Shown in pieces: positions 50,401-52,599 of a DNA stretch of 64,000 bases. This DNA is from Raja brachyura (Eukaryota), in the NCBI GenBank assembly GCA_963514005.1, contig OY740783.1, forward strand, positions 13,578,001-13,642,000, read 5' to 3'. A program made the position numbers and the translations under genes. The notes beneath the pieces are model-generated. The model made no database searches, was not told where the DNA came from, and saw nothing but the letters and a program-made list of their open reading frames with translations. The stretch's first letter is position 1. Each line of letters begins with the position of its first letter.

Positions 50401-51113
50401 AGCTTATTTCAGTGTCTTGTGATCCAGTTGATGGGGGTGGAAGGAAGGGTGCATGTGAGCCTTGAATGGCTAAACTCTCATGGGCAAGTTGGCCTGACAC
50501 TGATATTTCAGTGAATCATTTTCCCAAGAGAGTCGGAGTCAGTCCGTCCAACTAATCATGGTGGGCTTCCTATGTTTTTACCAGAAACTGCTTGGCCAGT
50601 AGCATTAACGGCATTCACAAAAAATATCTGCACAATAAACCCTCCAGAGTATAAGAATGAGTGTATACTGGAAGATCAAATGAAAAAGAAAACTCAATTT
50701 ATTTAGGTACTTTGTATTCAGATATTGTCAGCCTATTCTGTAACTTGTTAAATGTGCACAAAAGCTTTATAAGTGTATTATTTTGATCTAATTTCCATAC
50801 AGAAATCCTACTATACATCTGGTATAGTTAAATTAATTGCATCTACATTTTGGACGTGCAGTTCCTTTTCTCTCAAAAGATGAGTGAAGGTGTGGGTTGA
50901 GAGAGAGAGATGTGTTTAAAAATGCTTTATTTCCACAGCATGATCTGCAGATGAACATTAATGCTTTCGCCCCCATTCATTTGTTAAGCAGCGCTGGAAA
51001 TATGAAATTAATGGTGCCTATTAGAAAAATGATATATGGTCCTAACAGACAATCTTACTAACATTGCCTTTCTTATTCTTTTGCTGGCAAAAGCTTGTCT
51101 TTGTGTTTTCCAG

Positions 51114-51130
51114 CGCTACTACAATGACAG
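51114..51130 (+). other. Candidate 17-nt poison microexon in the AP3B1 intron between the 98-nt and 139-nt exons
   Basis: TACTAAC branch point at 51056-51062; pyrimidine tract and ttttccag acceptor; exon CGCTACTACAATGACAG; CAG|gtgagt donor. After the phase-1 upstream exon it reads GCG CTA CTA CAA TGA. Confidence 0.6.
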
Positions 51131-52599
51131 GTGAGTGCATGTGCGGCTGCAAAGTCTGCTCTAAACTATTATCTGGGGCTCTTTATTTTAAATGCTTTAC
51201 AAAATGTAGGAAAATATTGCCTGCTGAAGATTTGTTTTCTCTGCGTGCTTTTTTTTGGTGCGCTGAGGTTTTTGGTTACATTTTGTTTGCTTTTGTTGTA
51301 AGTGAGCCACTTTTCTGATTAGTCAAACAGAACCATCAGTTCACAGAAGAAGGACTCCCTGGGAATTGAAGTGAACCTCGATGGAGTTGTTGCCAAAACT
51401 CCTTTGTCTTTCACTATTTTCCTTCCATGGTTGTTGATTCCTTCTGTGAGTAAATGTGGCAGCTATGTGCGATGTTTAATCGACCAGAAAGGTTACTCTG
51501 AATAAGGTTTTTCAAAAGTTATGTTTTTATGCAATATTCCTAATGCAGCGACATCACTGAGTGGTAGTCGATCTTTCTGCGAGGTCTACGTTGGGATTTC
51601 AAATATCAACGCATGCAGCTGATAAATTGATCTCCTTCTGCTTATGGGGATTATTTAAGCAATTGTTTCATTCATTGTATTAGCTCCTGATCCAATCTGT
51701 ATGGTACCTAATTATAGAAGACTGCCAACATTTAGCTGATAAAGATGTGTACTAAATAATACCACCGTACAACAGGTTACCATGTCCTCCAATAAATACT
51801 GTACTAGGTCGAAACAGGATATTCCTGTTTACTATTCTCATTCTCTTTCATTACCCAGCCAGACATCCTGAACGAACCATAACATTTATTGGCAAATTAG
51901 TTATGTTTATCAAGATTTAACTGCATTACACTTGTGGCTTCAGTGGATTTTCTCCATTTATTTCAAGTAAATGAGGAAAATGGTAACAGGCAAAGTAAGT
52001 CGTGTTCTTCGGCTTTTTAAATTAGCTCAGTATTTGAATCAAGTGGACATTTAAATCTAGAATATGACTATTGCACAATTCTATATTGTACGCATAGTAT
52101 GGAACATTTAAAAATCTGAACACTTTTCCCTGTTTAATTCTCTCTTCAATGGGAGGAGCATTATGCAATGTATGATCTTTAATTCCAATTAGTCCTATTT
52201 CTACTTAGAATAAGTATTCTACTCTTAGAATAAAGGGGAAGCCATTTAAGACTGAGGTGAGAAAAAAAATGTTTTCAACCAGTGAGTTGTGAATTTGTGC
52301 AATTCCCTGCCATCCAAGTCACTGGATGGATTTAAGAGAGAGTTAGATAGAGCTCTATGGGCTAGTGGAATCAAGGGATATGGGGAGAGGGCAGGCATGG
52401 GTTATTGATTGGGGACAATCAGCCATGATCACAATGAATGGCGGTGCTGGCTCAAAGGGCCGAATGGCCTCATCCTGCACCTATTTTCTATGCCTATGTC
52501 TATGTCTACTTCACCCCATTTCTTTTAAGCGGTTCATTCCTTTCTCTGCGTTTCATCATCTCCATTTCAGTTGATTTGGCCAGTTGATTCTATGCCTGC

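What the first reader, a model, noticed from the sequence alone, without database searches (positions are those of the whole stretch)
51041..51160. Candidate 17-nt poison microexon that could switch off AP3B1 by NMD
Seen: non-repetitive intron carries a perfect TACTAAC branch point (51056-51062; also a QKI-type ACTAAC), a UGC-containing pyrimidine tract and a ttttccag acceptor. These are followed by the 17-nt CGCTACTACAATGACAG, a consensus CAG|gtgagt donor and TGCATG (RBFOX motif, 51136-51141). Spliced after the phase-1 98-nt exon it gives A-L-L-Q-stop, more than 50 nt upstream of the junction after the 139-nt exon. Known: SRRM3/4 and RBFOX regulate neural microexons, such stops trigger NMD, and neurons express the paralogue AP3B2. 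Inference: this could be a tissue-specific off switch that hands AP-3 from beta3A to beta3B, or it could make an ear-truncated beta3A. The RBFOX site abuts the donor, so it could enhance or repress inclusion. I do not know whether this exon is already annotated.
Basis: partly seen in the sequence, partly recalled or inferred. Interest (0 to 1): 0.8.

Follow-up and report, generated by a model that had tools for sequence, protein, structure and literature searches.

The report
Ancient neural poison exon in AP3B1
This skate intron holds a 37-base (not 17-base) frame-breaking cassette of the trafficking gene AP3B1 that matches annotated isoforms from sharks to humans, whose human counterpart is switched on by the neuronal splicing factor SRRM4, and that likely lowers the general-purpose AP-3 subunit in neurons by triggering mRNA decay.

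Summary
The cassette is real but its 5' edge was misread. The first AG after the TACTAAC branch point is 51092-93, giving a 37-nt exon (51094-51130). Inclusion shifts the next exon's frame to a stop 117 nt before the last junction. The human counterpart is catalogued (VastDB HsaEX0004942, 37 nt): PSI 0.3 to 80 on SRRM4 expression, near 0 outside neural tissue, up to 18 in cerebellum and retina. SRRM4 also raises the neuronal paralogue AP3B2, and AP3B1 mRNA halved in one cell line. Against: no skate junction read, no direct NMD test, and the mouse exon in this intron is 39 nt, in frame and NMD-insensitive. Verdict: an unannotated skate orthologue of a catalogued SRRM4-dependent exon; the poison/paralogue hand-over role is plausible (about 0.65) and was not found in print.

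The parts
25285..25516 (+). AP3B1 coding exon, 232 nt
   Evidence: tblastn 98.7% to skate AP3B1 P0012; splice sites read; a 232-nt exon is in the mouse coordinates
27056..27140 (+). AP3B1 coding exon, 85 nt
   Evidence: an 85-nt exon is in the mouse coordinates
47354..47451 (+). Upstream constitutive exon, 98 nt, ends in phase 1 (exon 25 by human numbering, number recalled)
   Evidence: 98-nt upstream exon in mouse
51041..51046 (+). Second branch-point-like/QKI half site (CCTAAC)
   Evidence: function inferred only
51056..51062 (+). Consensus branch point TACTAAC (branch A 51061, predicted); also a QKI/SF1 motif
   Evidence: PMC13004596 abstract for QKI/SF1 competition
51063..51093 (+). AG-free pyrimidine zone, UGC at -12 (51082-84), weak AAG acceptor ending 51093
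51094..51130 (+). 37-nt frameshifting cassette exon (reads ACLCVFQRYYNDR in phase 1)
   Evidence: matching isoform tails; human HsaEX0004942 is 37 nt
51112..51113 (+).
   Evidence: not possible at this exon position in 7 of 7 species tested
51131..51141 (+). Donor GTGAGT with overlapping TGCATG (RBFOX motif); read-through gives an immediate TGA
51145..51332 (+). Conserved downstream intron block
   Evidence: run X20 contig, 16 other letters and 7 gaps in 188 bases, against 15 in 91 for the coding exon; single copy in the genome
62699..62837 (+). Downstream exon, 139 nt; after the 37-nt exon its shifted frame reads KIDRNE and stops at TGA 62718-20, 117 nt before the last junction
   Evidence: last exon lies 24.4 kb further on

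Best explanation
A 37-nt cassette (51094-51130) in the skate AP3B1 intron shifts the reading frame to a stop 117 nt before the last junction and is the likely orthologue of the human SRRM4-induced neural exon HsaEX0004942, so in neurons it would be spliced in by SRRM3/4 and is predicted to send beta3A mRNA to nonsense-mediated decay, likely tilting AP-3 towards the neuronal beta3B subunit. Shown here: the sequence anatomy, the frame and stop, the conserved peptide tails, the conserved flank. Taken from published tables (human): SRRM4 dependence, neural restriction, rise of AP3B2. Inferred: splicing in the skate, NMD, repression outside neurons by PTBP/QKI, any RBFOX effect, and the effect on protein.
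For:: 24 of 254 AP3B1 records (17 species) carry the 13-residue tail at this junction; 14 of the 24 go on in the shifted frame of the next exon to the same stop. The skate exon fits the codons of the catshark, chicken and human tails at 31, 29 and 29 of 37 positions (random intron 37-mers reach this in 0.00005-0.0004 of 20,000 draws). Four squamate records fit a 29-nt version (8-nt deletion, 28 of 29 positions compatible) with another peptide but still out of frame, so frame breakage outlasts the peptide. (PMC7935315 supplements): HsaEX0004942, 37 nt, PSI 0.285 to 79.9 with SRRM4 in HEK293; among the 131 exons shared by all 6 lines; mean PSI 0.11 in 9 non-neural tissues; 16.6-17.4 cerebellum, 15.2-17.8 retina; 0 in NPC to 15.5 in day-50 neurons; AP3B1 mRNA 21.47 to 10.43 in HCT116; AP3B2 up 5.6-fold (MCF7) and 218-fold from near zero (MDA-MB-231, 7 d); cis-code of eMIC exons (AG exclusion zone, UGC near the 3' site, CUAAY) fits the 37-nt acceptor; the genome has 3 SRRM_C matches and a paralogue with the same exon chain whose matching intron has no such cassette; flank conserved; rat Ap3b1 protein diverges from the other AP-3 subunits, Ap3b2 included, during neuronal differentiation.
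Against: No junction read for the cassette was seen in any skate or shark run (only one possible RNA run, 2110 joints hidden). No skate or ray protein among the 27 such records has the tail. NMD was never tested directly. The mouse exon in this intron (39 nt, eMIC-dependent) is flagged ORF-preserving, with dPSI -0.018 on Upf1 knockdown and -0.106 in Upf2 knockout. AP3B1 is absent from the human brain and CHX-iNeuron tables of PMC13078869 and from the searched supplements of PMC11188260 (file 13 unsearched) and of the zebrafish paper PMC12626424. AP3B1 occurs only once in the expression file of PMC7935315 where AP3B2 occurs 8 times, and is unchanged on SH-SY5Y differentiation (1.08). The amniote peptide is well conserved, and 5 of 24 records end at the donor read-through, which fits a truncated protein too.
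Confidence: 0.65

Rival explanations
1. The 37-nt exon is used in neurons mainly to make a stable beta3A lacking the last ear subdomain, either by escaping NMD or as a terminal exon that reads through the donor to an intronic poly(A) site; such a subunit would still assemble and could act as an altered or dominant-negative adaptor.
For: 5 of 24 records end at R-stop (donor read-through) and all 24 are annotated as proteins; the truncated forms lose Pfam AP3B1_C_2 but keep the trunk and AP3B1_C; X20 (RNA is a guess) holds 51145-51332 at depth 8.6 beside 19 for the spliced contig; AATAAA at 51791; an earless beta3A assembles and reaches membranes but does not rescue sorting (PMC2199225); the amniote tail is conserved.
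Against: The donor is a consensus AG|GTGAGT; 14 of 24 records splice on; the peptide is not kept in squamates or between sharks and amniotes (4-6 of 13 identical); X20 may contain DNA or pre-mRNA; the 807stop construct is much shorter than this isoform.
Confidence: 0.17
2. The exon is real and SRRM3/4-dependent but its inclusion is too low to matter for beta3A level; the conserved block serves as a regulatory element with little net effect (as the in-frame mouse version might suggest).
For: Steady-state PSI 1.5-18 in human neural samples; AP3B1 mRNA drop recorded in one line only; mouse exon in frame.
Against: NMD lowers apparent PSI; PSI 80 is reached with SRRM4; out-of-frame length kept in sharks, skates, birds, tortoise, marsupial, several placentals and, with a new length, squamates.
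Confidence: 0.12
3. One reading: the inner CAG is the main acceptor and a 17-nt microexon gives ALLQ-stop.
For: The CAG has a fair pyrimidine run (14 of 20) and shares the donor; human shows a 9-nt form that probably uses an inner AG of the same exon, so inner acceptors can be used.
Against: Second AG after the branch point, 52 nt away; no UGC within 30 nt; not possible in 7 of 7 other species; 0 of 254 records end in ALLQ. As a minor skate form it would also be out of frame.
Confidence: 0.05

Closest known systems
Human AP3B1 exon VastDB HsaEX0004942 (chr5:78019467-78019503; TrEMBL isoform A0A8Q3WKN2)
   Same: Same length (37 nt), same junction, related peptide, same shifted frame and stop. 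This is very probably the orthologue.
   Different: Skate sequence has an inner AG at exon position 20; human can have one at position 28 (9-nt form). The skate exon is not in the annotated skate proteins seen.
Mouse Ap3b1 exon MmuEX0005432 (chr13:94543984-94544022)
   Same: Same intron between the 98- and 139-nt exons, eMIC-dependent, developmentally regulated in brain, up 0.187 on Ptbp1/2 knockdown.
   Different: 39 nt, flagged ORF-preserving and not raised by NMD loss. Orthology inferred from position and regulation; I could not align its sequence.
Neural NMD-inclusion exons that damp non-neuronal genes (Bak1 microexon, Flna poison exon; programme of PMC11188260)
   Same: Exon included in neurons puts a premature stop in a broadly expressed gene (named in PMC13078869).
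   Different: Here the target has a neuronal paralogue that the same regulator raises; NMD is predicted, not shown.
SRRM4-induced REST exon giving REST4 (recalled, no call)
   Same: SRRM4 includes a short exon that truncates a non-neuronal protein.
   Different: REST is a transcription repressor and REST4 is a described protein; here the target is a coat adaptor subunit.

Membership tests
SRRM3/4 (eMIC)-dependent neural exons | Strong CUAAY branch point with an AG exclusion zone | tested here: met
   TACTAAC, no AG for 30 nt to the acceptor at 51092-93; features listed in PMC8797185 section 10
SRRM3/4 (eMIC)-dependent neural exons | UGC close to a weak 3' splice site | tested here: met
   UGC at -12, AAG acceptor; splice-site strength not scored with a model
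SRRM3/4 (eMIC)-dependent neural exons | Inclusion depends on SRRM3/4 | not testable with these tools
   Not testable in the skate; the human counterpart goes 0.3 to 80 PSI, the mouse exon is eMICdep; 3 SRRM_C matches in this genome
SRRM3/4 (eMIC)-dependent neural exons | Neural-restricted inclusion | not testable with these tools
   No tissue-labelled skate RNA was available; human table shows it
Microexons (3-27 nt, definition of PMC7935315) | Length at most 27 nt | tested here: not met
   Conserved form is 37 nt; it would pass the looser 51-nt limit of PMC4317164
Poison (NMD-inclusion) exons | Inclusion creates a stop more than 50-55 nt before the last exon junction | tested here: met
   Stop 62718-20, 117 nt before 62837; a further coding exon follows
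Poison (NMD-inclusion) exons | Exon and intron flanks conserved beyond neutral intron | tested here: met
   Tails in 17 species; X20 flank 8.5% other letters against 16.5% in the coding exon; X19 3.0% against 4.0-6.2% in four flanking pieces
Poison (NMD-inclusion) exons | Included form rises when NMD is blocked | tested here: inconclusive
   Only tables: mouse 39-nt exon does not rise; human AP3B1 not listed in the CHX table. No data for the 37-nt form

The most novel reading that the evidence does not exclude
One regulator, SRRM3/4, performs a paralogue hand-over of the AP-3 beta subunit that dates to the first jawed vertebrates: it poisons AP3B1 through this exon while AP3B2 is switched on; the frame break was kept through a length change in squamates but lost in mouse, where the same exon became an in-frame 13-residue insert, so mouse neurons would control beta3A differently from human ones.
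Probability: 0.35. Interest if true: 0.7.

Novelty: new member of a known kind. Interest (0 to 1): 0.5.

Why it matters
This exon gives one deletable 37-nt element to test it. It is also a place where intronic variants could silence AP3B1 outside neurons (Hermansky-Pudlak type 2) and a possible antisense target, both untested. If the mouse exon is the in-frame orthologue, mouse is a poor model for this control.

Tried and rejected
Junction evidence: the look-up of sequencing runs listed no RNA holder on record; the one possible RNA run (X20) showed a spliced contig whose alignment runs one base past the 98-nt exon, as expected for the skipping form, and no joint to the cassette among the 15 joints shown (2110 hidden, repeats crowd the table). 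Reads were laid on 47300-53300 only, so joints to the 139-nt exon could not appear. Base-by-base conservation of the AG, GT and branch point in other species was not displayed (1007 rows hidden), except X16 (0 differences over 51094-51244, a close relative at low depth). The first two protein searches favoured skipping isoforms (0 of 143 with a tail); tails came from cluster members and a tail-based search. No ray-finned fish, amphibian, mouse or rat record was among the 254 proteins, so those lineages are untested. One partial match (marmot P0220) was left out of the 24. A paper I recalled as holding vertebrate microexon tables was not held. Rejected: in-frame coding microexon (37 and 17 both break the frame); repeat-derived artefact (single copy; no tandem repeat there); a like cassette in the paralogue (best blastn hit 12 nt, E 0.24). 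The in-frame product of a donor 7 nt further on plus the 17-nt form has no support in any record.

Full report
Host gene. The window carries four coding exons of AP3B1 on the + strand (232, 85, 98, 139 nt); the last exon lies 24.4 kb beyond the 139-nt exon. The 139-nt exon peptide is 98% identical to a skate AP3B1 cluster and 80-93% to rays and sharks, so the genome is a skate's. The same exon sizes appear in the mouse coordinates.

Observation. All motifs are present. UGC sits at -12 of the first and only at -32 of the second. The first gives a 37-nt exon, 51094-51130, read in phase 1 as ACLCVFQRYYNDR; the next exon is then read in the frame KIDRNE-stop, with the stop 117 nt before the last junction. 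If the donor is not used, a TGA follows at once.

Which acceptor is real. Of 254 AP3B1-family protein records gathered, 197 skip, 21 have no recognisable end of the 98-nt exon, 7 have other tails, 4 have a squamate tail and 25 begin with the ACL-type tail; I dropped one of the 25 (marmot, only four residues alike). The 24 come from 17 species: catshark ACLCAFHYFCNDS, zebra shark ASICVFHSFCNDR, chicken ACLCALYLLSNPR, zebra finch, tree sparrow, whydah, turkey, two owls, tortoise, Antechinus, ground squirrel, mole-rat, bat, two seals and human ACLSALHLLSKPR. Fourteen continue in the shifted frame to the same stop, 5 stop at the donor read-through, 5 continue otherwise. None ends in ALLQ. The skate exon fits the codons of the catshark, chicken and human tails at 31, 29 and 29 of 37 positions, against means of 15-19 for random intron 37-mers (reached in at most 0.0004 of 20,000 draws). 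An AG at exon position 20 is impossible in 7 of 7 tails tested. The four squamate records (three species) fit the human tail with one 8-nt deletion at 28 of 29 positions: a 29-nt exon with another peptide that is still out of frame (inferred from peptides, not DNA). These records are mostly automatic gene models, so they show annotation, not protein.

DNA conservation. Nine organisms hold words of 50900-51400; runs of five hold 44-46%. For X11 the 4.9% divergence over 49576-52184 would leave about 21% of 31-mers, against 46% seen. X19 differs at 3.0% over 50290-52136 and at 4.0-6.2% in four flanking pieces. X20, a more distant organism whose run is guessed to be RNA, differs at 15 of 91 bases in the coding exon but only 16 of 188 (plus 7 gaps) in the intron block 51145-51332; the region is single-copy here. 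No junction to the cassette was seen.

What is known. PMC7935315 (passages and supplement rows seen) lists AP3B1 HsaEX0004942, 37 nt, PSI 0.285 with GFP and 79.9 with SRRM4 in HEK293; it is among the 131 exons shared by six SRRM4-induced lines, averages 0.11 in nine non-neural tissues, reaches 16.6-17.4 in cerebellum, 15.2-17.8 in retina, 1.5-8.5 in brain and cortex samples, at most 2.6 in heart and muscle, and goes from 0 in progenitors to 15.5 in day-50 neurons. In the same data AP3B1 mRNA falls from 21.47 to 10.43 in HCT116, the only row for the gene in that file, while AP3B2 rises (8 rows; 5.6-fold in MCF7). PMC8797185 (section 10, passages, one supplement row) lists mouse MmuEX0005432, 39 nt, as eMIC-dependent and gives the cis-code that the skate acceptor fits. 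PMC13078869 (passages, supplement rows) flags that mouse exon as brain-regulated, up 0.187 on Ptbp1/2 knockdown, ORF-preserving, and not raised by Upf1 or Upf2 loss; its human tables do not list AP3B1. PMC4317164 (passages, supplement rows) lists a 9-nt human AP3B1 micro-exon; by a genome-build offset that I recall it is the 3' 9 nt of the same exon, and one search shows that an AG is possible at that position. PMC11188260 and PMC12626424: supplement searches, no AP3B1. PMC5316641 and PMC2199225: passages. PMC13004596: abstract only.

In print? Searches for AP3B1 with microexon (0 papers), with SRRM4 (5, none on this by title or abstract), with splicing and NMD (18, clinical or proteomic by listing), with AP3B2, neuron and alternative splicing (7), and for the two VastDB ids or 'AP3B1 exon/cassette/splicing' (3) found no paper that discusses this exon. 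Only listings were seen, and most subscription journals are not covered. The scan's own notes held nothing.

Mechanism. Outside neurons the weak AAG acceptor is skipped; QKI binding at the branch-point motif (a second CTAAC lies 16 nt upstream) and PTBP could add repression (inferred). In neurons SRRM3/4 (three SRRM_C matches in this genome) would recognise the UGC/branch-point architecture and include the exon; the RBFOX motif overlapping the donor may tune this (untested). The shifted frame stops 117 nt before the last junction, predicting NMD; any escaping protein would lack the last ear subdomain (PF24080). The genome has a paralogue with the same exon chain at 42-68% identity (that it is AP3B2 is my recall), whose matching intron lacks the cassette. 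The result would be less beta3A as beta3B rises.

Verdict. New member of a known kind; interest 0.5.

Noticed in passing
window, same intron, 3' of 53300 and 5' of 62699 (one of the candidate frames printed): A second conserved alternative exon in this intron: two frames of one candidate match the tails of lizard isoforms (Elgaria X4, P0202, 15 residues identical; Sceloporus X2, P0222, 15 of 16, where it follows the squamate version of the 37-nt exon).
   Followed up: no
L003:5048-5130 (last intron of AP3B1, G000:C3 about 13657050): Sequence matching, at 25 of 26 residues, an alternative C-terminus annotated in Pristis and Mobula isoforms; here the two bases before it read CG, not AG, so the acceptor may be lost.
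   Followed up: partly
window 47452-47464: A second donor 7 nt after the 98-nt exon (GTAAGGA|GTGAG); the mouse event record also lists two donors 7 nt apart there.
   Followed up: partly
last intron of AP3B1 (beyond the window; human and mouse tables): A 36-nt cassette is listed in the last intron in both mouse and human; not looked for in the skate.
   Followed up: no
window 51094-51130 (relative P0144): The catshark isoform ends in S-stop where other species have R, which neither splicing to the 139-nt exon nor a GT read-through explains; Heptranchias X3 (P0150) ends with one residue at the same junction.
   Followed up: no
window 34880-35310, 49290-49580, 52220-52500, 59440-59720: Reverse-transcriptase-like (LINE) fragments and other high-copy repeats in the introns; the family name is recalled.
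   Followed up: no
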